Shown here one piece after another: positions 39,228 to 55,198 of a stretch of 64,000 nt of DNA (positions within the stretch are counted from its first letter, which is position 1; every line of letters starts with the position of its first letter). The notes below the pieces were generated by a model. That model did no database searches. It had not been told where the DNA came from and saw only the letters and a program-made list of their open reading frames with translations. Source of the DNA: Pecten maximus (taxonomy: Eukaryota); the NCBI RefSeq assembly GCF_902652985.1, contig NC_047020.1, positions 38,068,001-38,132,000 of the forward strand, read 5' to 3'. Position numbers and translations under genes: made by a program.

Positions 39228-39604
39228 TGTAGCGGAACTGGACCGGGTCGATCATCGGCGACCAGGTAGCTCAATTGGTAGAGCATCCGGCTAGTGTTCG
39301 GAGGTCTCGGGTTCGAACCCCGATCTGGCCGTGCATTTTTTCACTCCTATTACATTTGGTGCCTGTGACCAAACCTTGTTTCAAGTGAGGTGAATACTTG
39401 ACAAGGAGATACCCGAACCTGGGTTGTGAGTTGTGAAGTCTTCAGGGTCGAAGACTTAAAAAAATAGGAGGGAAGAGTGTAGCAGAACTGGACCGGGTCG
39501 ATAATCGGCGACCAGGTAGCTCAATTGGTAGAGCATCCGGCTAGTGTTCGGAGGTCCCGGGTTCGAACCCCGGTCTGGCCGTGCATTTTTCCACTCCTCT
39601 TACA
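39228..39604 (+). mobile_element. Intact TRIM (377 bp) with a tRNA-Thr(AGT)-like Pol III unit inside each 127-bp LTR
   Basis: LTRs 39228-39354 and 39478-39604 (TG...CA, 6 mismatches), ATTA TSD, PBS TGGTGCCTGTGAC (tRNA-His-like) right after LTR1, PPT AAATAGGAGGGAAGAG right before LTR2. Each LTR has A box TAGCTCAATTGG, B box GGTTCGAACCC and an oligo-T terminator. Confidence 0.9.
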
Positions 39605-39990: not shown

Positions 39991-42900
39991 ATGACATCCA
40001 CAACTTATTGGGGTGAACTGCCCAGTCTTCCTGACACAGATTCAGGGATTGCGGCCATTGAGAGAGAGCAGATGACGAAACCTCGTCCGATGGATGTGGA
40101 GGGCCCAAGACTTCACCAGCCTTCCAGTAGACATCATCCTCCCACAAATGAGTATGTACTCGACATACATGTTACCCCAGTCTGTACTCAACATACATAT
40201 TACCTTTCACCCCACAATGAGTTATGAACACCTGTACTCTCTCAACATATACATATTGCCACCATCCAAACAATAAACATACCAGTACATGTATATATTC
40301 CTGCCAGACCCACAAAAACTATTTATATGGGTTCTGATGACGGTTGGCCTAGCCATCCGAAACATGTAAACATATTAAAACCTACAAGTTTACCGAATCC
40401 TTTGTGTTGATGCTCCATCCCTTATCTATTTGTATTTATATGTGTGTACATAATGCATGTAGTATGATCCTCTCCATTGTCAACAGCCCTTTATATTGTT
40501 CAACAATGATACTGCCCGCCTTCCTTTCATCATGTCCAGCTAAACCCCTCTAATAGAAGGACACACCTCCAGGCCACATTTAATAACATGTTTGATATAT
40601 TTTATCGATATGTTTTGAATTCTCTCAAACTCCTACCATCTGTTCATCAGACATCATTCTCCTTAAGTGAAGTCCAACTTAAGGTTCTCAGAGAATCAAT
40701 CAGATACCAAAGTAATATCTTTGAAATAAATTTAATAAAATATTTTGGTGGTGGTCCAAATTTTGCAAGTACCAGCAATTTGCCATTATTGATTTCAGTC
40801 CCCTGCCAAGTGAACAGTTTGAAATGGACCCCATCGTTTTACACACCATCCGACTTGTTCAACATGCCAAGAAACTCCGTCAACTCATCTCCAGCGTCCA
40901 ACAACAACAGGAAGCTGTTGTATGTATTCTTGTCAATGGTTTGATAATTTGTTGTACTAAAACATAGATGTAACATCCTTCTTAGGCATACAATGCATTG
41001 TAGCTTACTCAGCTTGTTCATTGTCAAAAAATAATAAACATCAGACATCATTCTATTGTTTAAGAAATCTAGCATACTTCTGGAGTTAAATTTTAACATA
41101 GAAATATCAATGCTATTTTGATGATTTCTATCTGTAAAACAAAAAATCCAACTTATCCATCAGAAATGGTAGGTTAGATAAATTACATCATTTTAAGGTA
41201 ATGGTTTGTCAAAAAATTCTGTACTGTTTCAAAATTTGAAATCATGAATGTATATATGTCAAATCCCTCATGGAACATTGACAATATGATTTTTAAAAAT
41301 AGATCACACATATATATAAGTATTGAAGTTCATATGGTTGCTCTGAGGTCATTGATCAGGTTCTTCTGTATCAAGGTTGCCACGGTGATTGACCATTCCT
41401 GTATTGTTTTGTAGAAAAACGGAGAGAGTGAGATAACATACCCAGCTACCCCACCTATCCCAGAATTCACTGGCTCTCTGCCGAAACACAAGGTTCAGGG
41501 ACCAGTGCCATTCATGCTAAAGGAAATGGAGAGGTTTGTAAGACAAGTGTAACACATTAATTCAGACCGAGGGATAAAGATTAATTACACACGGTGAATT
41601 TATCTGCACTAGAACATGACCTTTGCTAGAGTTAAATTGTCCAGGGGAGATAACTTAGTATTTCTTGTATCTTATTTGATACTTTATCTAATGATTATTT
41701 TTTTGTATTTCAATTGATGATTTTTTAAAATATATTTTTATTGGTGAATTTTTAAAATTTAATTGATGATTTTATTTAAACTTTTCTGAATATTTACACA
41801 TAAAATAATTATATATTTTTTTTTATCTTATTAAGTGTTCAGAATGTTGATATGCTTTAAGGAACTATACCGGTATGTTATTTGTATTATGAAATGTCTT
41901 TTTGCAGAATTATAAACAAATATATAAACGTGGGAATGACAAAGACCGACACATACATTAATCAAAATATCTTTCTTTTAATTTCAATCTTTGCATTCTT
42001 TTATCAAAATAAATAACATGCAATTCTAGGACATATCATAAATCATAAAACACCATTTTTGGATATTGAAAGAACGTAATGTAGACTAATAGTAATACAT
42101 AAAGAGATTCCCAATGATGTCGAAAATATTTCATTATGTTTTTGTGGCGTACGCTTTTGAACTTAAAATGGATTTGAACACTTCAACAGTATCTTCTCAT
42201 TAAACGTTGATAATAGACATCTTAAAAATCAAAAAGTTGAAAAAGGTAAAAATGGGTTTAAAATCTTATAGATATGACCTTTGACTTTGTGTTTATTGAT
42301 AAACATTGTTGTTAATATGAACTTTGCAGTGACTTTGTGAAGGGAATTGGTGAACCACCCCCGGAGATTGATGATCTTTCCTGTAGGAAACTTCTACGGA
42401 GATCAGTATCGGCCGTATGTGCACACACTGGTTATGACAGTAAGTATAGACATAAAAAAAAGACAAAAAACAAAAAACCATGCATGTATACTCAAAGGAC
42501 TTTGAGTTGAAGCTAAGTTGACCAATGTTATTTTAGGGAGTACAATGCAAACATGCACTCATATGTGTGCTGTTTGCCCTGTATCCAGAATTGGACTATC
42601 TGAAAATCACTGACTTGTCATTTTGGAATCATTTGTCAAGATGTTTGTATCTGTCATGTATAAGGATATATTTTGTGAAACATTTTCATGATTCGGTTTC
42701 ACTTTCATGCACATTGTATATGTCATTCTCTGTACTGTTGTCGTATACAGACAACAAAAAATTGTGACATCTCCTGCTCGTATTTTAAGTTCATGTTAAT
42801 AATTATATAGTAAAGGAATTTATGTTATTTTTCTTTGATCCTAATTAAGGCACGAGTGAATCAATCATGGAGACACTGACCGATATCACACATGAGTATT

Positions 42901-45900
42901 TTCAACAGCTGACCACTCACCTGCGGACTGCAGTGGACAACCGACTCCTACATGGATACAATGGCTTCCCGGTAGGTTACACAGAGCCATGCTCAATGAT
43001 TCTGGTTTAATTATAGTAATGAAAGTAGGTAAAATATTGTGTTAACTGTAATTTCCATCAAATTTCAATTACAGAGGAAATGTTATCAAGTCCACAAAAA
43101 GTGAAATATCAGTAATATAACTCAATAATGTTGATAGGCCAAAAATGATTTATATGCACAAAAATGAAAAGGTTTACAGTGAAAACTGTGATCTGAATAC
43201 AGTGTATGCTGACATGTTTCTGATCAGAATCCTGATGAAATAAGTCCTGTGTATTCAAACAGCCATCATCGTAATTTGACGATGGGGCCGCGGTGGCCGA
43301 GTGGTTAAGGTGTCCCGACACTTTATCACTAGCCCTCCACCTCTGGGTTACGAGTTCGAAACCTACGTGGGGCAGTTGCCAGGTACTGACTGTAGGCCGA
43401 TGGTTTTTCTCCGGGTACTCCGGCTTTCCTCCACCTCCAAAACCTGGCACGTCCTTAAATGACACTTGCTGTAAAAAGGACTTTTAACAAAAACAAACGA
43501 AACCACATGTAATCTGACATCCTGTCTTATCTGAATCATAATCCATCACAATGAAAACTATGGAATAAAACCTGTGTAGTCTGACAACTATCAGTGTAGT
43601 TGATAAATTTGGTTTGTCTAAGAGGCAGGGTGTGTCAGATTAGACAGGTTTCCTTGTTAACATATATGGAAGTCAACTATAAGGTTAAAAGTATGTAGGT
43701 AAAAATTGTAGTGATGCCACTTAAATCAATTTTAAGGGAGTCAACTCTGCCAAACCAAATTAAAAACTTTAAAAAAAAAGTATCTTGTAAATGAATAAAC
43801 AGACTGTATTCCTTGCAGTTTGTACTTGATTGCAGTTCATAGATTATAAATTTTAAATATATTTATTATTTATTTAGAAAAACACTTGAAATTTGTAGTC
43901 TGAATACTCTGCCCTTTTGTGTTGTAGGATGTTGTGGAGGAGGTGTTCCATCAGGTAGGAATCGGTAGTGTGACCACACTCCATGGCTTCTATCAAAATC
44001 ACATCATCAACTACCAGAAAAATATGGAACAGACGTGCCAGCAACTTGTCACTGAGTATGAGAAGATGAAACTACCAACCATGATAAAGATGGAGACTGT
44101 GCCGGTCATAAGGTAACAAGTTAATATGGTGGCCATTCTGTAGGTCTGAAACGCTTGGTCCAGGTTTTACAAAGCTGACAATATTAAAGCAATTTTTGAT
44201 CATTGGAATGTATAATAAAAAAATCTTGTTTTGTGATGTTTGTTAATTCAGTGGAAATGACAAAGTATCTCAACCTAGTATTTTGACCATTAGATTTTTT
44301 TTAAACATAACCTTACATTGTCTTATTGATGAAAAATTAAACTTGAACTGTAATGATTCACTATATAAGCTGAACTGTAAGTTTAGATCATTACATTATG
44401 TTGTAGACTCAGTGGGAGGACTTTGTCATAGCTTTCTTTTTATTTCTGAATATCGGCATTTGAATTTATATCATTATTTTATATAAATTCGAGAAATATT
44501 GATGCTGTAGCTTCCTTATATTTTATGAATATATTATAAGGGTAGAAATCTTAACTGACATACATCATCAAAGAAACTAAAAATGAAAATAAATAAAAGT
44601 ATTTCCCTTTTTTCCCCAAAGAATAAAAGAAGAGCCATGTTCAGAGATTCAGTTTCCTGTTTTGGATGAGAATGATGAGATCAATGATGCGGAACAGTTA
44701 CTACAATTGGAAGGTGAGAATGCAGTGTTGAGTGATGACCATCAACCTTACTTGAGTCAATATATTAGATTTTGCATTTTGGTGATTTGTTATTGAATAT
44801 TGGTATTTTTTACAGCCATCTAAATGGCTATTAAAGAAACTGAATGGGGTGGGGCTGTAAGGGGGTCTGAGGCAGGGATAGATCTTCGGTGACCATCTAT
44901 TTTCTTATTTGTTTGATTTGTTAAACAAATTTTACCTAAATTTTGACAGGTCTGAGTGGATTTGAGATAACTGTTGAACATGAATCAACAAGTGGTCTTA
45001 CAACAGAGATGGATTCCAAATGGCAGAGTGTGAAATCGGAATCTGCCGAAGGAGGCACAAGGTTGGTGTAAAAAGAACAGAATTAAATTATTGAATTTTT
45101 TTACTGTTGATAAGACGCAGCATCATGGTAGCGACTGTCGATCGCGAGACATTCAGTCCCTATGTTCCAGCACTATTGTCTGACAAATATTTGCCAGGAT
45201 GAATTGTTTTGGGCAATTACCCTAGATTTTATTTTTAGTCCCCTACTAGAGAAACCTGGTGGTGGGGTGGGGTTGGGGGCTTAAGTTTTCCTCTCTTCCC
45301 GTCTTGTGTGTATGGTACGTAACAAAAATTTGTTAGTGATCCAGTGGCTTCATTCACTAAGGGGTTTTGATCCAACTTCCCACTATTTTTGAAAAAATAC
45401 AAGATTCTTTGAAAATCATTATGGTGTAATAGCTGTTTAGCACTATTTAGGGGGCATGTATGCTATAGCAATGCACAGTATGCTTGTTAACCCTCTTTCC
45501 TTTGCTTGTAGCATTTTTTATGTTCGCTACTTATGGAGGTATTGCATTTACTGTCAAATGTATTGGTTTTGAAGACTCGGTTTATTACTGCATTAATCTA
45601 ACTCTCTCCTGTTATGTTGACATTGGGTCATACAACCTTTTTGACCTGTTGATTTTATTTTTCAGCTCACGTCTGAGTTTTGATGTGTTTGACGAGCCTG
45701 GGAGCGTGAAGCCACCTCGGACACCCGCCCAGCTGAGTGAGGGTGGTGACAGTATAACAGACCCTGCCTCTATACCAGGCTCCGACATAATGTCTCCCCC
45801 CTCCATAACCTCACGACCAAGTAAACCAAAGAAAAGGTAAGTAAAGAAAAATCAAACCAATAGTTTCTATGTTTGTCATTATGGCCAGGCCCCGCTTGCA

Positions 45901-48900
45901 CAAAACATCTCAAACTGAGCAAAATCTCAAACTCAAATCGATCTCAAATCCTTGAGATTTTTCTCACTTGAGATTTTCTCGAATATGGCTTTCACGAAAA
46001 ATCTCAACTCAGTTTGAGTCCGGTCTCAGCTGAGACGGCTATTTTTGAAAGTGAAAGTAGATCTTTTGTAATGGAGGTGAAAAAGACATGTCGCGCTATT
46101 TTTCGTATCACTATTTTTCCCGTACTCCTGTCAACTGACGTCTGCAGTTGTCGTCTGCACTTGTGGTAGTAATAATGGCAACAAAAAGAGCCATGAATTG
46201 GACAGAGAAGGAGAAGGTGGTCCTGGTGGAGGAAGTTGTTAGAAGGGAAGATATCTTATTCGGCAAATTCCGTGGGTCCGTAGTGACCCATGAGACAAAA
46301 CAGGCTGCATGGGATGCGGTGACATTCAGTGTTAATGCGTAAGTAAATGCGATATATATAAAATATGTACTGGTGATCCGATTTGGGCACTGTCACCTTA
46401 TACCAAGGGTATACATAGATAGATATATCATGCATAAGGACAGTAAGATCTCATAGAATGATATAAACCGATTATAACTTAATTGTGATACCTATAGCCT
46501 TACGGGAACTGTCGTAGGTTTTGATTGCATTCCCAAAACCTATCAGAAAATTTTGTGTATGTATATATGGCGCGGGAAGGATGTCATAATTAAATATTTT
46601 TGCCTTGCCAAAAATTAAATATTGTCCAGGCAAAGTTATTTCTGCCTAGACAAAAATCGAATATTGCTTAGGCAAAAATATTTCAGCCTAGGCAATATTC
46701 GCTTTTTGCCTAGGCAAAATTTTGTTTCGATTATTGCCTAGGGAAAAATCGAATTTTGCCTAGGCAAAAAATGATTTTGCCTGGGCAAAAATATTTGATT
46801 ATGACATCCTTCCCGCGCCATATATGTACAATGTGTATACGTCATGTACGTGGCCACTGTATGAGATATTGAAATGTTGTGCTTGATTTTTATAGTCCAT
46901 TTTAAATTTTGTGTGCACCATAATAGGAAAAGGCAATGAAAATGCAAGTAAATATACATATTTTTAAAGAAATTATTGATTTCCATCAGATTTTTTTCAA
47001 CATACATGTACATATATTTTATTTTGCAGTCACATTGATGTACAAGATACAAGTCATTGCAAGAAACATTTTACGTCGAATATACACAACATAGTATCAT
47101 GAGCTCGAAAGAGCTTGTATTTCGACAAACATCAATTAAAACAGATATACAAACAACAAATAAATATATCACAACACTTTACATAGTTGCAATCACAGAT
47201 ATAGATTTAACTTACATCACAGATTTATGGATTAAATAGATAAAGATCTGAGAATGAACACCAGTATAACATAGACACTGTGTTACTAGAGTTTTAATTA
47301 AAACACAATAGAGAAGTGTAATGTACATATATATGCTAATGTAGCAAAGAGTAAGAATTTTGAGAATACACTAATATAGTGTACATTAAAAGAAAACAAT
47401 CTTGATAGTAATTTAAATAGATGAAATTAAACTGAGGAATGAAATCAAAACTTGAGACAGCATATTATGAGATACAAAGTATAAAATATCCAGAATAGAA
47501 CGCCATAATTAAGCCACATCTCTGAAAGCACATATATAGAGAGTACGGAATAAATAAACATAGAGGTATACACAACGGGACAGTGTGTGAAACAAAACTT
47601 TACTCTAAAAGGTAATCATACATGTATTTGCATATGAATAAAATATTTTACAAATGTCTGAAATTTAAATGAAGAATTATGCAAAACAACTCATATACAC
47701 AATATATATACAAATAACTTTTTCCAAATTCTGAACAATAAAGAAGTTCTTTTTTTTCCATGAACTTTGTCATTTTATTATTTTGTTATCACAAATCATA
47801 GGAATATTTATGCAAGCTTTCATTGACCAAAAATAAATAGAAATAATTGAAATCTTACTAGATTCATGTAGTTTTTCCCAGTTAATTATGTTGAAGTACT
47901 TTGCCAAAAATTCCAGACATTATTGATGGTGACTCATGAAGATATGATGAATGGTGATGATGATGATTTAATGATGATATACATATGTATATATGTGTTT
48001 GGAAAAAAAAATTAAAAAAAATATTCCAGACATTAATTACAAACATAACAAAACTAATATGAATCCTCATTAGACCAGCCCTGGACTGTCAGTTTCACTT
48101 ACAGAACGTCACCATATATATGTACATGTATACACTGTATGTAAAACTTTTCTCATTAACATTCAAAGTGTAGATAATTACATACCATTGGTACATACAT
48201 ACAGGACACACATACAAATTATGTATCCACTAAGCAAAACTCAATTAAATATTGTTGAATCCGATACTTTTTTTCAGTTTTTGCTGAATTAACTTCAAAA
48301 ATGAATTCATCATCAATTTCGTTCTGGTTGCATAGATTACAGATTTTAATACAAGAGTTTTTTTAGGGCCTTTGTTCCATCTTCCATATGTTTGTTTGGT
48401 CTTACATAGATATTGCCATTATATGAGTTATCCATGGAAGTAGATATTTCTTCACGTTGTGGGTACACAACTGTATCTCTGATAACTATATGTACACCCC
48501 ATAATATATATTGATTTTAAAAATAATGGCATGTATGAAATATTGTTTTCAGCATTGCTCAAATCCAGAAATCCACTGACCAAGTAAGGAAGCAGTATTC
48601 TAATATTAAGCAGAGAGGTTTGTATTATTCACACAAAAAAATTCAAAAAATATACTTGCATGGTATTTTTGTTGAAAATTTGCATTTCAATTCTGTTACT
48701 CGGTATCCTTTGTCAATTAAATCTTCTCTTCTGCTTGAGAGTTTTGGAATTTGTTAGGTAGGAATTGCAACTCAGCAAAATGTTTTTAATTCATTTCAGC
48801 AATTTGATTATTATAGAATTTGATTTAAACTTTAATTAATTCTTTTCATTCATACACAATAATGATAACCACATACGAATGTAGTAAACTAATATAAATC

Positions 48901-51900
48901 AGTCTCCTTTAGATACGGAATTTATACCTGTAAATGAAATCACGAGAGCAAAAAAGACAATGTATACAGATATGATTTATATGCAATAATTTTTGTTTCA
49001 TTATTTTTACTGTGTTGATGCATTACATGGGGCTAAAATATATGTTTTCAGCCAAAGAGACAGTGGACCACATGAGAAAGACTGGCGGTGGTCCTAAAAC
49101 AGAGGCCACTGCAAGTCAGTCACTGCTTCTGGAAAACATTGGCTCAAGACCGGAAGTGGTGGGCCTTCCTGTCAACTTTGACACTGAAGGTACTAGATGT
49201 ACTCCTGAATGACTGCATTTCTTTGTCATAGATTAGCTAATCTTGTTTGACAGTCTGTCTAAATCTAATAAGTACTGAAGGGATCTTTCTCAAATGTTAC
49301 ATGCAGGTTCCTCTTGGTCAGTAGTTTTTCAACATGGCCGAGTGGCAGCCATCTTGGATTTTAACAATTGAAGTTTGTTACTGCTGCAATTTTAGTTAGA
49401 TGAAATAATTTTACATAATTTCCTGTTATTAAAGTATATGATATTGAAAGAAGAAAAACTCTGAGAAAAGATCAGTCTTTCATTTGACTAATATAGATCA
49501 TACAATGGTGGGTGCCAAGATCCCTCTGGGATCTCTTGTTGGACATACAATTATCACATAAACTGTATATATAAATGGGTAAGATCTTTACACAGTTTTT
49601 TTTCTTTTGCTGAAATGATGTGTTTTTATGCATCACAACAATTGGATGTACTGTGTCAGGAAGCACTAAGTTAAGTCTTATGAATTACAATATAACACAA
49701 AAAACAATTGCAAGGGTCAAAATTGTTATCATTATAGTTAACTTGTTGAAGTGTTAATAAAAAAAGTTCTTTGTTCATATTTTCAGATTCCAATTATAAC
49801 TTTCAACTGTCTGAAATGGACCAGGATCCAGAGGAAACCTGTGTCTTATCTGTGGTTTCTGATGACACATCTGGACCTTCTACTTTCAGCAGCAAAATGA
49901 GTATGTGTATATGCTAGCTATATAGTACAGCATAAGGATAGCATGTATAAATGACAGTATAGGGATATCTGACTACAGTAGCTTGCTAGAAATGTAAGGG
50001 ACTGAAAGTGAGCTACAAGACAGTGTAAACAAAGGAATTTCTAAAGCCAAGTGAATTTTATAAAAAAGAAATTGATGGCATGTATGCACATTTCAGATAT
50101 ATTTAATGAAATCTTTGGAAGTCACAAAGGAAAGAAAAGTAAGTAAGTAGAAAGGGGGTTTATTCAATATTGATTCAAATATTTAACTGATTTTAGGTGG
50201 TGGTACCATATTTTACAAAAAAAAAAAAAAGTGCATTACCCAAAAATGTTATCATATATCAATTATAAAGCCTACCGTAAATAAAAATCATAAAGATATG
50301 ATTTATAACCATACTTTTTTTTAATATTCTGTTCATTTGTAGATAACCAACATGGGATTAAAAGGAAGAACCTGGCTCAGGATTTCAGGGACGTAGAAAC
50401 GGAAAACATCAAGCTTGAGAACGTCAGAGTGAAAGAGGAAACAAAGAAAATATTGTTAGAACAAGAAAAACTGAAGCTTGAAATAGAGGTACTGAAATTA
50501 AAAAGGAATTACTACTCTTCCGAAGCAAGTCAGCTATGTGGTCCAACATTACTTTATGAATCCTAAATTATAATTCATTTTTGTTTTCATTAATTCATAA
50601 CTTCATTTAAAATTACATATCAGTAGGATAAATATATGGCTAATTATGTATTGAATTGATATTGGTTAGGGCCCCATAGAAAATGTCAGTGTCTTAATTA
50701 CTTTGTATGCCTGTCTAAAATTTTGATTATTATCATAGAGTTATACTGAAAAAATATCATTATATGTATGCGAGTACTTGCATCAGATGTTTACATATTC
50801 TTGTATGTATCAATGACTTTAATGGAATTTACATCTCATGTATATCAATATATCTTTGAAATTGTTGGATCTGTATGATGCAGCTAGCTATGTCTATAAA
50901 ATAGTTCAATTATGACTGATGAATGTTATCTTTTTTATAGGTTAATTAATTACAAACTTTATACAACTTACAATTAACCCAACCTTGTTCTGGATATGTC
51001 AGTATTCTAATTCTGTGTGTATTGAAAGAATTCATCAACGGAAATTATTTTGACAGATGTGGTTTCTCACTCCTGCACCACCAGCATCAGGACCAACATA
51101 GTTTAATTGATTTCCAACTTCATTATAATTATTTTGATGTTCACAATTCAACACTTCCTTCTTTTCTTGTGCTATGTTGTGTAATACTACACAGGCCATG
51201 ATTATCCCTGCTGCCTTGGTTGGTGCCACTCTCAACCCAACTGAAAGGCAAGCAAACCTTCTCTTTAATATGCCAAATGTCTGCTCAATAGTTGTTCTGG
51301 TCCTGCACAGGGAGTTATTGAACCTCTGCTGCTCATTGGTGCTGGGGTTGATGAAAGGTGTCATTAAGAAATGTCTACAGGGATACCCTGAATCTCCCAA
51401 CAGGAGCCCATCATATGTTCCTGAAAGCAAAATGTACAAAGCTGGGTCAGAATTTGTAGTTGATCGTGGCATCTTTTTATTTTTTTAAAGATGTTATTCT
51501 ACTTTAATAATACAAAATAATATAAAAAATTCAATTTCCAACGTTTTATGCCATATATGTCATTGAATATAATAAAAAAAGAATTATTTTTTTAAAAACT
51601 TGTTAAGGTTAAAATGTGTTCTCTGGGACTGAGTCATTAATGTACATGCCCCTAAATGTTATACCATTCTAGCCCGCTACCTATTGGTCAGGAGTTTGAA
51701 ACCCACATATATAGTGCAATTGATTGCCAGGTACTGACAAGGTTGATGGTTTTTCTCTGGGTATCCACCACCAAACCTGGCACAAACCGGTATGCTTAAA
51801 TAACCCTGGCTGTTTTTAAATAGGACATAAAACTGAAATACATTCTTGAAGTGTAATTGAATACACTACATCATGTATATATTAAGCAAGGACTTCATCC

Positions 51901-54900
51901 ATAATATGATATGTATTTCAACACTGACCATTCTCAAAACTTCTGCATAACTGACTGTCCCTAAAAATCCGAGAATCATGTACTGATCCAGGCCACTTTG
52001 CAACACAGCTAGTTATTAGAAACTCAGCATTGCATGTCATCTGCAATAAAAATGAAGCAGTTGTTTTAAAATATAACATTGTGACATCTATATTTGTGTT
52101 TCATAAACAATTTGCTGAATGTTTTCCATTTTAACAAATTGTGGTTGCATGTTCAAGATGATGTTAGTACATCAGGATTCGACAACAGACATATATTCTT
52201 TATCAGTCTTCTAAATGTTTTACATATTGTATTCAGATGTGGCAGGATTTAAATTATATATCTATTATTGCTTGACAATATTGTATGTGACATGTCATGA
52301 CTCCTATAGAAGCTACAGATAGTATGCATAGTCTTTGTAGATAAAGAGAGAGAGAATACATATTTAGGCCTATCTTGAAATGTATAAGCTTTAATGAAAA
52401 GGAACTAAAAGGACAAATTTGTATACCTGTGTGTGTGTTTATATTAGGGGTATACAATGTATATTACTTTCTGCAAATATGGTACATGTGCCTGGTATAT
52501 CCTTGTAAAGGTGTCAGAGTTAATTAGGGAAATTAATATTAGTTAAAGAAATTTGCATGGGATAATTGTAATTAATGACTTATTCACAAATCAACAAACT
52601 AATTAATGTCACATGATTTGTACCTGGACATTCAGTGAATGAAAGCCTTTGCGGTTCACAAAATCCTTCTCATTTTCTGTGGGTCCTTGAATTCTTACAT
52701 GTGTACAATCCAAACACCCAACAACATTGGGGAACCCTGTAATTAAATCATTTTATTTTCATTTGTAATGTTATTTTATTTGAAAAGTACATGCATATTA
52801 TTGTTTCTCAAGTCACTGCAGGATATATATATTCATCTACATGTATTACATTTTTTGTATATATATAAAATCAATCTACATGTACATGTGTAAGCTTCGG
52901 GGGGTGGCATATGGGGTTTTAGTGGAATGACTGAATGTAAAAAGTACTGAACATTATTTTTATTACATATATATATGAGAGTTGTCTTTGTGCATTAATA
53001 CTTAATGCATATCTCATTCAATTCAATCTTAACCATGCAGCATTCCTTACATTTTGAAAAAAAGAGAAATTGGAAAGAACTTAAGAAACCCATATTTACA
53101 CAAAATAGTTGCTAATAATGAACGTACATGTACAATAAGTTTGTTTTCACCTTTAGAAATTTATTGAATGAGTTTAATTTAGTTATAATTATATTTTTTC
53201 CACAAGAACAGTAAAATTATTAATTAATTCAGTTTTTTTATTTACAGTATTTGGTGTGTTTTGCGTGTGGCTTTTACATGAATGTATATTTAGATTATAT
53301 TTATTTATATCTTAATTTATTAAAACCAAACATAGTATTAGTAATTTGAAAAGGCTATTATTATATCAATATCATGATTAAAGAGTGGTACATGTGTATG
53401 TGTGTGCGTTTTGTGTCTTAAATTTGTAATATTGATATGTATAACGTTTCAATCTTAAAAACATCCTCGTTAAATGAAATAATGATAAATGATAAATATA
53501 TATCAAAGGGAGGTGTGTGCAAGGCTACATTGATATTTAGGAACATTAATTAATAATAATGATGTTGTTGAATAAATTATTTTTATTTGATTTAAATTTG
53601 ATTTCAATGTGCTTTTTTGTATTTCCTTGGTTATTAATCCGAGATAACTTGATTTAAGCAGAGACTTCAATTTAAATTGGTTTTCTTTAATTAACCAAAT
53701 CCGGTTTCATCTATTATGCACAACTGTTTACGCTTTCTTTACAATCGGAACACCTCGCCTCGGTCTGTTTTGAAGGATTCTGATATATGGTGCACTTGTT
53801 TAGCATGCTCCGAGTTTTCGTTCGAGGAATTTTCGTATCCTGATACTTATGGACTATAAATTTCAACAATTACAATACGATGTTAATTTCATCTTGAGAT
53901 ATGCTAGTTACACCAGACATTTCTAAATATTTGACACTTTGAGACCAGTACAATTCGGTGCCAAGACATAGACCTATCGACACAGTCAATCAAATGCGCC
54001 TTAATCTAAGGTCAAGGCCAACTTCGTACAAGGAAAAGTTGTGGATACTTACTGCTCAATTTGTAGAAGTGTTGCTTCGTGTTCACGTCGTCTGTAAAAG
54101 TGATAAATCGTCGAGCAAGTCTTGCTATTGCTGCTGATACTTTATGTACACAACGACATACCGATGCCTCGGACAAACCCACGGAATCGCCGATGAGACG
54201 AAAGAAGGACCCAGTAGCGTAAAACCTTAACGCTACTAACAACTGCAAAATTGGCGAGATAGCTTTGCTACGCGTAGTTGCAGTCTCAAGCTCCGGGCGT
54301 ATCAGATTTAAAATAAATAAGATACTTTGAAACGAAAATCTGTATCGTTCCCGATATTCCCTATCACAGAATGAATTAAGCCTGAAGCGCGGTCTGAACC
54401 TACGACAATCCCGGCGCATTCGTCGTCTCCTTAACGCGTAAGCGATCGCCATCATGGATTTGAGACTGCACTTGAGCTGTCTCAAATATTTGAGAAAAAA
54501 CTCAAAAGTTGAGTTGAGATTTTCTGGGTAAGTACTTTGTGAAAGCCAAGTTGAGAAAATACTCAAATTTGAGATCGAGTTTGAGTTCAAATCTCAATTT
54601 GAGCTCAAATCTCAGTTTGAGATGTTTTGTGCAAGCGGGGCCAGGTCACATATAAAGATATATCTATCCATTAATTTAATGTGATTAAAAAGCCAATTCA
54701 ATAGAATAAAAAAAATTCTTTGAAAAATAGATGTGAATATTAGATATCAAATTTTCCTCAAATACCATTGGCTAAAGCAGGGTCACATGGAGGTTAATAT
54801 TTTGTGATATTAACCTGATATTTCTTTTTTTAGAAACACTGAGTTAATATTGTATTCATGAAGTCATACCCCGGTAATCATTGTGACAGCAGAATGCCCT

Positions 54901-55198
54901 AATGTAAATTTCCCGTTATGAGTGTTACCAGGATAAATATAATGCAATTCCATCTATTTGCAAACAAATTTCATATCTGGAAAGATTTGATTCGCCCTCA
55001 GTCAATATTGGATTCTACCAGGTCGGTTTAACACTAAATTGACCTCACAAAATGTCCATAATTGATAAATGTAAATTGATGCTGAAAATTATTGGTGCCA
55101 AAAGTATAAAGTACTGGAATTAGAATTAAATTTTGATTTAGATTTTGAAAAAATATTTATTTGTGTTTTTTTTTTATTTCAACAATAGGAAAAAGTGA
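39991..55198 (+). CDS. SUPT7L: STAGA complex 65 subunit gamma (SPT7-like), ~400 aa
   Basis: Exons 39991-40151, 40799-40919, 41415-41533, 42330-42439, 42850-42971, 43928-44112, 44622-44713, 44950-45061, 45666-45836, 55189-55198 are in frame (1203 nt). [46 protein letters not shown] and IKEEP match SUPT7L. Confidence 0.93.
43283..43500 (+). mobile_element. tRNA-derived SINE (near full length) in a SUPT7L intron
   Basis: A box GGTGGCCGAGTGGTTAAG, B box GAGTTCGAAACC, conserved core GGTTTTTCTCCGGGTACTCCGGCTTTCCTCC, AAAC tail. Confidence 0.85.
46175..50566 (+). CDS. Harbinger Myb/SANT-like DNA-binding protein (~234 aa)
   Basis: Exons 46175-46338, 48553-48617, 49052-49189, 49787-49900, 50343-50566 are in frame (705 nt). 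[14 protein letters not shown]...KQAAWDAV trihelix motif, RKTGGGP motif, C-terminal coiled coil. Confidence 0.88.
46566..46822. mobile_element. MITE nested in intron 1 of the Harbinger Myb-like gene
   Basis: ~40-bp TIR TATGGCGCGGGAAGGATGTCATAAT / ATTATGACATCCTTCCCGCGCCATA, TA flanks, internal GCCTAGGC palindromic repeats. Confidence 0.88.
51035..54455 (-). CDS. Harbinger (HARBI1-like) DDE transposase, ~337 aa, intact
   Basis: Exons 54455-54053, 52736-52624, 52040-51929, 51420-51035 are in frame (1014 nt). Motifs [69 protein letters not shown]. Confidence 0.93.
51680..51835 (+). mobile_element. Decayed SINE of the 43283 family inside transposase intron 3
   Basis: GAGTTTGAAACCCAC...TTGCCAGGTACTGAC...GATGGTTTTTCTCTGGGTA...AAACCTGGCAC is collinear with 43350-43450. 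Confidence 0.7.

What the first reader, a model, noticed from the sequence alone, without database searches (positions are those of the whole stretch)
45666..50566. Phase-compatible SUPT7L::Myb-like fusion and a buffered insertion site
Seen: the element lies 52 bp past the SUPT7L donor (45836, phase 2) with its Myb-like gene in sense. Myb exon 2 (48553) is also phase 2, so 45836-to-48553 splicing gives an in-frame chimera ...PKKS-IAQIQK...YES* that adds ~180 aa including the coiled coil. The true last exon encodes only RKK*, and unspliced read-through gives KKR*, so premature polyadenylation costs just two residues. Inference: a near-neutral landing site that could attach a transposon protein to a SAGA subunit. 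This is notable because Harbinger proteins have repeatedly been domesticated into chromatin complexes.
Basis: partly seen in the sequence, partly recalled or inferred. Interest (0 to 1): 0.7.

Follow-up and report, generated by a model that had tools for sequence, protein, structure and literature searches.

The report
Young transposon inside scallop SUPT7L intron
A recently mobile, intact jumping gene sits in the last intron of a scallop chromatin-complex gene; a fusion protein is possible on paper, but the assembled RNA shows only the normal splice, so this is likely an ordinary new insertion rather than the birth of a new gene.

Summary
The element (45889-54641, 8,753 nt, CAG duplication, intact Myb-like and transposase genes) is a young NuwaI-type PIF/Harbinger transposon with four near-full-length sisters (0.3-1.1% different). 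The phase match is unremarkable: 5 of 9 SUPT7L coding introns are phase 2, and a sister copy in another gene is also phase-compatible. RNA contigs show the normal 45836-55189 junction in 6 of 7 runs and no SUPT7L-to-Myb joint in the 4 runs with a complete joint table. Carrier status of those animals is unknown, so the fusion is unsupported, not excluded. The fusion would lack 49 of 78 Myb-domain positions, unlike known domesticated Harbinger proteins. 'Buffered' is only partly right: a KKR* isoform is annotated in another scallop, but the two lost lysines break a C-terminal basic motif found in 36 of 58 relatives, likely the nuclear import signal. A sister copy splits a coding exon, so the family does not need neutral sites. 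Side lead: 4 of 4 gene-resident copies carry Myb in the host's sense.

The parts
39991..45836 (+). SUPT7L (STAGA complex 65 subunit gamma) coding exons 1-9: 39991-40151, 40799-40919, 41415-41533, 42330-42439, 42850-42971, 43928-44112, 44622-44713, 44950-45061, 45666-45836
   Evidence: tblastn with scallop orthologues, open 400-aa model with AG/GT borders, Bromo_TP in the orthologue, match to human SUPT7L chains E 4e-60
45837..45842 (+). SUPT7L last-intron donor AAG|GTAAGT, phase 2; read-through gives R then stop
   Evidence: used in RNA contigs
45886..45888 (.). left target-site duplication CAG
   Evidence: CWG outside 19 of 20 exact element ends in the genome; single CTG at a paralogous empty site
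45889..54641 (.). NuwaI-type PIF/Harbinger (PHIS) DNA transposon, 8,753 nt, both genes intact
45889..45919 (+). left terminal inverted repeat (31 nt identical to the right one)
46148..46148 (+). weak cryptic acceptor; phase 0 for the Myb frame, so out of frame with the SUPT7L donor (gives KKSCRLHLW*)
   Evidence: not seen used
46175..50566 (+). Myb/SANT-like gene, 234 aa, exons 46175-46338, 48553-48617, 49052-49189, 49787-49900, 50343-50566 (intron phases 2,1,1,1)
   Evidence: Myb_DNA-bind_5; public 234-aa model; three of the four joints seen in RNA contigs
46563..46825 (.). 263-nt inverted-repeat (MITE-like) insert in Myb intron 1, shared by the sister copies
   Evidence: loose ends at 46566 show copies elsewhere
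48553..48617 (+). Myb exon 2, the phase-2 acceptor of the proposed fusion; seen joined only to the element's own exon 1
   Evidence: joint 46338-48553 in X6
51035..54452 (-). DDE transposase, 336 aa, exons 54452-54053, 52736-52624, 52040-51929, 51420-51035
   Evidence: open frame; DDE_Tnp_4 on two exons
54611..54641 (-). right terminal inverted repeat
54642..54644 (.). right target-site duplication CAG
55189..55198 (+). SUPT7L last coding exon (completes R, then K K stop); 3' UTR runs at least to 55405
   Evidence: joint 45836-55189 in RNA contigs; orthologues end KKRKK

Best explanation
An intact, recently active NuwaI-type PIF/Harbinger transposon has inserted at a CAG site in the last intron of scallop SUPT7L; assembled RNA shows only the normal splice across that intron, so the in-frame match to Myb exon 2 is likely a coincidence and the insertion is likely a young, probably unfixed passenger. 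Shown: element anatomy, CWG target, near-identical sisters, normal junction, separate Myb splicing. Inferred: the element's transposase and Myb protein cut and pasted it to a CWG site with no regard to phase; in carriers the strong AAG|GTAAGT donor most often still reaches 55189, helped by the Myb gene's apparently weak terminator; aberrant products, if made, would be minor and mostly unfavourable (stop codons ahead of further junctions, loss of the likely nuclear import signal).
For: Full element with 31-nt TIRs and CAG/CAG. Four sisters at 0.30, 0.31, 0.41 and 1.1% difference; both genes open in 3 of 5 copies. CWG at 19 of 20 exact ends. Phase 2 in 5 of 9 SUPT7L introns; the C1 sister also sits behind a donor (phase 1) that fits Myb exons 3-5. 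Normal junction in 6 of 7 runs laid, from 5 of 6 studies; no SUPT7L-element joint in 4 of 4 runs whose joint table was complete. Element RNA matches the C13 copy at 26 of 33 variant sites against 3-5 of 39 for the other sisters, and 4 of 4 element-end contigs with a flank come from other loci. No fused protein: exon searches for longer proteins gave only 400- and 433-aa SUPT7L and the 234-aa Myb protein; 0 of 150 SUPT7L relatives match a Myb profile. The C11 sister splits a coding exon.
Against: No contig shows that any sequenced animal carries this insertion, so normal splicing from a carrier allele is not shown. Contigs drop rare forms; 31 of 46 joints and 13 of 32 loose ends were not displayed; 7 of 24 listed runs were laid and most are RNA only by guess. 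The 48553 acceptor is real and scores like the true one in a crude 16-site matrix (7.0 against 7.4), so nothing in the sequence forbids the fusion splice. The public model of this gene ends at KKR*, which may reflect read-through in a carrier or only the annotation method. A last-intron insertion with an element-borne acceptor is how KRABINER arose.
Confidence: 0.78

Rival explanations
1. In carriers a minor share of SUPT7L transcripts does splice 45836-48553 and makes a 577-aa SUPT7L with the last Myb helix and the likely coiled-coil tail; a by-product that could be raw material for a fusion gene.
For: In-frame join; genuine acceptor used by the element and of similar score to the true one; stop in the last Myb exon, so it would escape nonsense-mediated decay (inference); precedent of capture from last-intron insertions (passages).
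Against: Joint absent in 4 of 4 complete tables; no fused protein on record; the Myb donor at 46338 (GTAAGT) competes for the same acceptor; the product lacks 49 of 78 Myb positions and the K[KR]x[KR] motif; the copy differs by 0.3% from mobile sisters and shows no sign of selection.
Confidence: 0.2
2. The insertion is mildly harmful: it diverts carrier-allele transcripts into cryptic exons or intronic poly(A) sites, giving unstable RNAs or a SUPT7L without its full nuclear import signal, and survives only as a heterozygous or rare allele.
For: 8.75 kb added 52 nt from a donor in a 596-nt intron; 14 AATAAA/ATTAAA hexamers in Myb intron 1; every alternative product loses the K[KR]x[KR] motif present at the end of 36 of 58 relatives against 11 of 1,429 background windows; SPT7L's import signal carries TAF10 into the nucleus in human cells (PMC1820849 passage); elements near exons are depleted and enriched among harmful insertions in mammals (PMC3088655 abstract); a sister copy breaks a coding exon.
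Against: A KKR* isoform is annotated in Mizuhopecten; contigs of the related copy run through the whole element, which suggests it does not stop transcription; no carrier expression data.
Confidence: 0.25
3. The site is an established, selected SUPT7L-Myb domestication that recruits a Harbinger module into SAGA.
For: Harbinger proteins have been recruited into plant chromatin complexes (PMC5339849 abstract; ALP1/ALP2 papers in the listing).
Against: TIRs, target duplication and transposase are intact and the copy is 99.7% identical to sisters; orthologues in three other scallops have no such tail; no junction and no protein.
Confidence: 0.02

Closest known systems
NuwaI group of the PHIS (PIF/Harbinger) superfamily (PMC4482050; first half of the text and supplement 2 read)
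   Same: 3-bp CWG duplication, DDE transposase plus Myb/SANT gene, TIR within 12-61 bp, animal host; the catalytic core resembles NuwaI_NVec most, by eye
   Different: 8.75 kb against an average of about 4.5 kb; TIR begins GCC, not the usual GGG; scallops were not named in the parts read; its TIR was not found in the paper's 3 supplements (one file cut)
Host-transposase fusion genes such as KRABINER, SETMAR, CSB-PGBD3 (bioRxiv 10.1101/2020.05.07.082677, passages)
   Same: DNA transposon in a host's last intron with an element-borne splice acceptor
   Different: those have RNA support for every junction, are shared across species, and in 8 of 9 cases use an acceptor just ahead of the whole ORF; here the acceptor is internal, the DNA-binding domain would be cut, and no junction was seen
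Domesticated Harbinger Myb-like proteins: NAIF1, MSANTD (PMC9392472, passages), HDP2 (PMC5339849, abstract), insect MADF partners (PMC9710019, passages)
   Same: same Myb/SANT trihelix protein class; the public model of this gene is even labelled NAIF1-like
   Different: they are stand-alone, immobile, conserved genes that keep the trihelix; this one lies in a mobile multicopy element, and the words fusion/fused/chimeric in the sense of a host fusion did not occur in the two reviews searched

Membership tests
NuwaI (PHIS superfamily) | 3-bp CWG target-site duplication, confirmed by an empty site | tested here: met
   CAG/CAG here; CTG/CTG at C1 and C4; CAG/CTG at C11; none at C13's right end; CWG at 19 of 20 ends; one CTG at the empty paralogous site of C1
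NuwaI (PHIS superfamily) | DDE transposase ORF | tested here: met
   336-aa open frame; DDE_Tnp_4 E 2.6e-18 and 7.5e-8 on two exons
NuwaI (PHIS superfamily) | second ORF with Myb/SANT domain | tested here: met
   Myb_DNA-bind_5 E 2.9e-18, residues 5-81
NuwaI (PHIS superfamily) | TIR of 12-61 bp | tested here: met
   31 nt identical
NuwaI (PHIS superfamily) | TIR usually begins GGG (a tendency, not a rule) | tested here: not met
   begins GCC
NuwaI (PHIS superfamily) | transposase falls in the Nuwa clade | tested here: inconclusive
   no tree built; by eye 11 of 16 and 15 of 17 residues of the first two blocks equal NuwaI_NVec in Figure S3
Classical PIF/Harbinger | TWA target-site duplication | tested here: not met
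   CWG instead
Host-transposon fusion gene | transposon domain in frame with host sequence | tested here: met
   on paper only; 49 of 78 Myb positions are left out
Host-transposon fusion gene | RNA support for the fusion junction | tested here: inconclusive
   not seen in 4 of 4 complete joint tables nor among 15 of 46 joints shown; carrier status unknown
Host-transposon fusion gene | kept in related species or under selection | tested here: not met
   orthologues in Ylistrum, Argopecten and Mizuhopecten end without the tail; 0 of 150 relatives match the Myb profile
Domesticated Harbinger gene (NAIF1/MSANTD/HDP2 type) | single-copy, immobile, without TIRs | tested here: not met
   five near-full copies with TIRs
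Domesticated Harbinger gene (NAIF1/MSANTD/HDP2 type) | physical presence in a host chromatin complex | not testable with these tools
   needs SAGA pull-down from carriers

The most novel reading that the evidence does not exclude
This scallop NuwaI family is a standing donor of C-terminal tails: its full-length copies sit in genes with the Myb gene in the host's sense (4 of 4 gene-resident copies), the Myb unit lacks a firm terminator, and in carriers the SUPT7L donor is captured by Myb exon 2 to give a 577-aa SUPT7L-coiled-coil chimera, a host-Harbinger-Myb fusion caught at birth in a SAGA subunit.
Probability: 0.12. Interest if true: 0.55.

Novelty: new member of a known kind. Interest (0 to 1): 0.2.

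Why it matters
As found, it is a clean example of a probably still mobile NuwaI-type transposon in a scallop, with three intact copies and insertions in genes, useful for studying insertion polymorphism and as a candidate active element. If carriers did make the chimera, it would let one watch the first step of transposon-domain capture in a core transcription co-activator, for a Harbinger Myb gene, for which the literature searches here found no host fusion. Nothing found here shows that step.

Tried and rejected
Other routes to a fusion with the whole Myb domain: of the 32 AG sites between the donor and 46338, four are in frame (46189, 46243, 46246, 46330) and all score 0.1 or less; the best upstream sites (45889, 46077, 46148, score 3.6-3.7) give stops. 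Joins to Myb exons 3, 4 or 5 stop within 15 codons. Search for an empty haplotype in the assembly: both flanks occur once, on C6 only, so no empty allele is held. Carrier test from RNA: intron 45400-45623 has no cover in 4 of 4 runs and no displayed contig crosses the insertion site in either form: no verdict. The primary paper on SPT7L's import signal was not held; only a later paper's account was read, and it does not give the signal's position. Naming the C1, C4 and C13 hosts by Pfam failed (0 of 51 frames above cut-off; none for these hosts); a methyltransferase likeness of the C1 host is recalled, not tested. The protein atlas could not read the C1 exon. The two short public Myb models at C4 (151 and 169 aa) could mean an upstream exon spliced into Myb exon 2 or 3, but equally a start inside intron 1 or 2; their RNA structure was not visible, so they are not counted. 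The TIR was not found in 12 of 33 supplements of the bivalve transposon survey; 21 were not searched and may hold this family. No fold or complex was predicted: the chimera is hypothetical and a model would not bear on whether it is made. Earlier-finding look-ups gave nothing on this element.
Full report
Observation. The window encodes SUPT7L in ten coding exons, 39991-55198, giving 400 aa ending PKKRKK. Named public records identify the species as Pecten maximus: its SUPT7L and Myb models lie on a contig of the same length as the window's. The donor after 45836 is phase 2. An element begins 52 nt later at 45889 and ends at 54641, with 31-nt identical terminal inverted repeats and CAG on both sides. 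It holds a five-exon Myb/SANT gene on the plus strand (234 aa) and a four-exon DDE transposase on the minus strand (336 aa); both frames are open.

What the element is. The genome holds 20 exact copies of the 18-nt end, 19 with CWG outside. A paralogue of the C1 host shows the empty site with a single CTG. CWG duplication plus transposase plus Myb gene defines the NuwaI group (PMC4482050, first half of the text read), and the catalytic core resembles NuwaI_NVec by eye (supplement 2; no tree built). Five near-full-length copies were compared: the window differs from C1 at 26 of 8,726 sites, from C4 at 27 of 8,726, from C11 at 36 of 8,746 and from C13 at 87 of 7,904; C1 and C4 differ at 9 of 8,755. 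Window, C1 and C4 have both genes open; C11 has a Myb frameshift (possibly an assembly error) and about 5.5 kb extra; C13 has a broken transposase. The family is therefore young and likely still mobile (inference). Young insertions in bivalve assemblies are often heterozygous (bioRxiv 10.64898/2026.02.10.705023, passages on oysters); that was not testable here.

Is the phase match special? No. SUPT7L's nine coding introns have phases 2,0,2,1,0,2,1,2,2; the Myb acceptors are phases 2,1,1,1. A sense insertion fits exon 2 in 5 of 9 introns and some Myb exon in 7 of 9. The C1 sister lies 112 nt behind a phase-1 donor in a last intron and fits Myb exons 3-5 in the same way.

RNA. Seven of 24 listed runs were laid, all as assembled contigs, most RNA only by guess. 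The 45836-55189 junction appears as a joint in 4 of 4 runs and as a loose end reading into the last exon in X5, X6 and X10; X8's displayed pieces do not reach the donor: 6 of 7 runs in all. In one search (45400-48750) the joint table was complete and held one joint, 46338-48553, the element's own first intron. In one search, 15 of 46 joints were shown and none joined SUPT7L to the element. Against over-reading: contigs drop rare forms, 13 of 32 loose ends and 59 of 87 pieces were hidden, and no displayed contig crosses the insertion site filled or empty. Element RNA mostly comes from elsewhere: of 40 variant sites (all 33 element rows shown, 7 picked), C13 has the RNA letter at 26 of 33 covered, the other sisters at 3-5 of 39 (the window at 0 by construction). 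The four element-end contigs with a flank (X6, X7, X9, X10) are from other loci, two matching C13 flanks. X8 and X9 do hold young-type pieces with 0-1 differences. So the fusion is unsupported but untested in a proven carrier.

Proteins. Searches with a SUPT7L exon and the last Myb exon among longer proteins returned only 400- and 433-aa SUPT7L and the 234-aa Myb protein (weak evidence by the tool's own note). None of the best 150 of 318 SUPT7L relatives exceeds 505 aa or matches a profile of this Myb family, and 0 of the 17 of them scanned in Pfam, mostly the longest, has a Myb domain. Exon 1 carries positions 1-49 of the 78-position Myb profile, so the chimera would keep only the end of the trihelix that binds DNA and protein (PMC9392472, passages). 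The coiled coil in exon 5 is read from the sequence by eye and was not tested.

Is the site buffered? For: Mizuhopecten has an annotated isoform ending KKR, and the public model of this gene also ends KKR. Contigs of the related copy run from the spliced Myb exon 4-5 joint unspliced across the transposase gene to or toward the right end in X1, X5 and X7, and no AATAAA or ATTAAA lies in the first 530 nt after the Myb stop, so the element may let transcription pass. Against: KKRKK or KKSRKK ends the other four scallop sequences; 36 of 58 relatives of at least 340 aa (92 shorter hits dropped) have K[KR]x[KR] in their last 15 residues against 11 of 1,429 background windows; read-through, the 46148 product and the chimera all lose it. 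Human SPT7L has an import signal that carries TAF10 into the nucleus (PMC1820849, passage reporting earlier work); that this C-terminal cluster is that signal is my inference. Harbinger Myb proteins can themselves drive import, so the chimera might still be nuclear. Read-through RNAs that then splice the Myb exons would have a stop ahead of several junctions and would likely be degraded (general knowledge). Survival at this site also proves little: the C11 copy splits a long coding exon of an HMG-box gene whose two halves align in order to residues 450-811 and 840-1094 of a Mizuhopecten protein.

Mechanism and rivals. Most likely (0.78): cut-and-paste insertion at a CWG site, spliced out with the intron in most transcripts, phase match by chance. 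A crude acceptor matrix from 16 local sites puts 48553 (7.0) near the true acceptor (7.4), so a minor chimeric splice in carriers stays possible (0.2), as does mild harm (0.25); these overlap with the main reading. Established domestication is very unlikely (0.02).

Comparison with what is known. It works like, and by target site and gene content is, a NuwaI-type PHIS element. It is not a host-transposon fusion gene by the criteria of the vertebrate survey, which need RNA support (bioRxiv 10.1101/2020.05.07.082677, passages), although that survey shows last-intron insertions can start one. Known Harbinger recruits into chromatin complexes are whole, separate proteins (PMC5339849 abstract; ALP1/ALP2 seen in a search listing). 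Searches for SUPT7L with fusion and transposon gave two unrelated papers (listing); searches on this species with Harbinger gave surveys with no mention of this locus in the passages read, with 21 of 33 supplements unsearched.

Side lead. Gene-resident copies all have Myb in the host's sense: SUPT7L, C11 (coding exon), C1 (last intron of a multigene-family member whose last acceptor appears deleted) and C13 (about 745 nt behind an exon inferred only from its AG/GT borders). C4 sits in unique, CpG-rich sequence 14 nt behind a GTAAGT, host unknown. Four of four is 1 in 16 by chance, noticed after the fact, so it is a lead only.

Verdict. Real, correctly described, ordinary: a new member of a known transposon group in a host intron. 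Interest 0.2.

Noticed in passing
G000:C11:12996425-13010724 (L031, L032): A sister copy splits a long coding exon of an HMG-box gene; the halves align in order to a 1,860-aa Mizuhopecten protein. Likely a null allele in this haplotype.
   Followed up: partly
window, G000:C1, C11, C13 copies: 4 of 4 gene-resident full-length copies have the Myb gene in the host's sense and the transposase antisense; the C13 host exon is weakly supported and C4 is unresolved.
   Followed up: partly
window 50343-54648: Contigs in three runs of three studies continue from the spliced Myb exon 4-5 joint unspliced across the transposase gene (two of them to the right TIR in one piece); if stranded data confirm it, Myb transcripts run antisense over the transposase and could silence it.
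   Followed up: partly
window 48407-48552 and 47254-48021: In X6, contigs start at 48407 beside an AG at 48408-48409, hinting at an alternative acceptor or start in Myb intron 1; intron 1 is often retained, and contigs stop at an A-run near 48021.
   Followed up: no
window 46563-46825: MITE-like insert with 51-nt arms and internal palindromic repeats in Myb intron 1, present in the sister copies and elsewhere in the genome.
   Followed up: no
G000:C13:36354182 onward (L026): The C13 copy's right flank is a tandem satellite with no target duplication, whereas an RNA contig with C13-like variants continues with CAGGTCA and other sequence, so alleles or loci differ.
   Followed up: no
window 45836; public model XP_033743679.1: The public SUPT7L model of this species omits the last exon and ends KKR, although RNA contigs support the KKRKK form: likely a mis-annotation caused by the nested element.
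   Followed up: partly
window 58466 onward: 29-nt tandem satellite, at least 51 copies up to 60000, with strong GC skew continuing to about 63000.
   Followed up: no
window 39260-39600 and 43284-43470: Two tRNA-like repeats in tandem upstream of SUPT7L and a very abundant SINE-like repeat in intron 5, both with very high contig depth.
   Followed up: no
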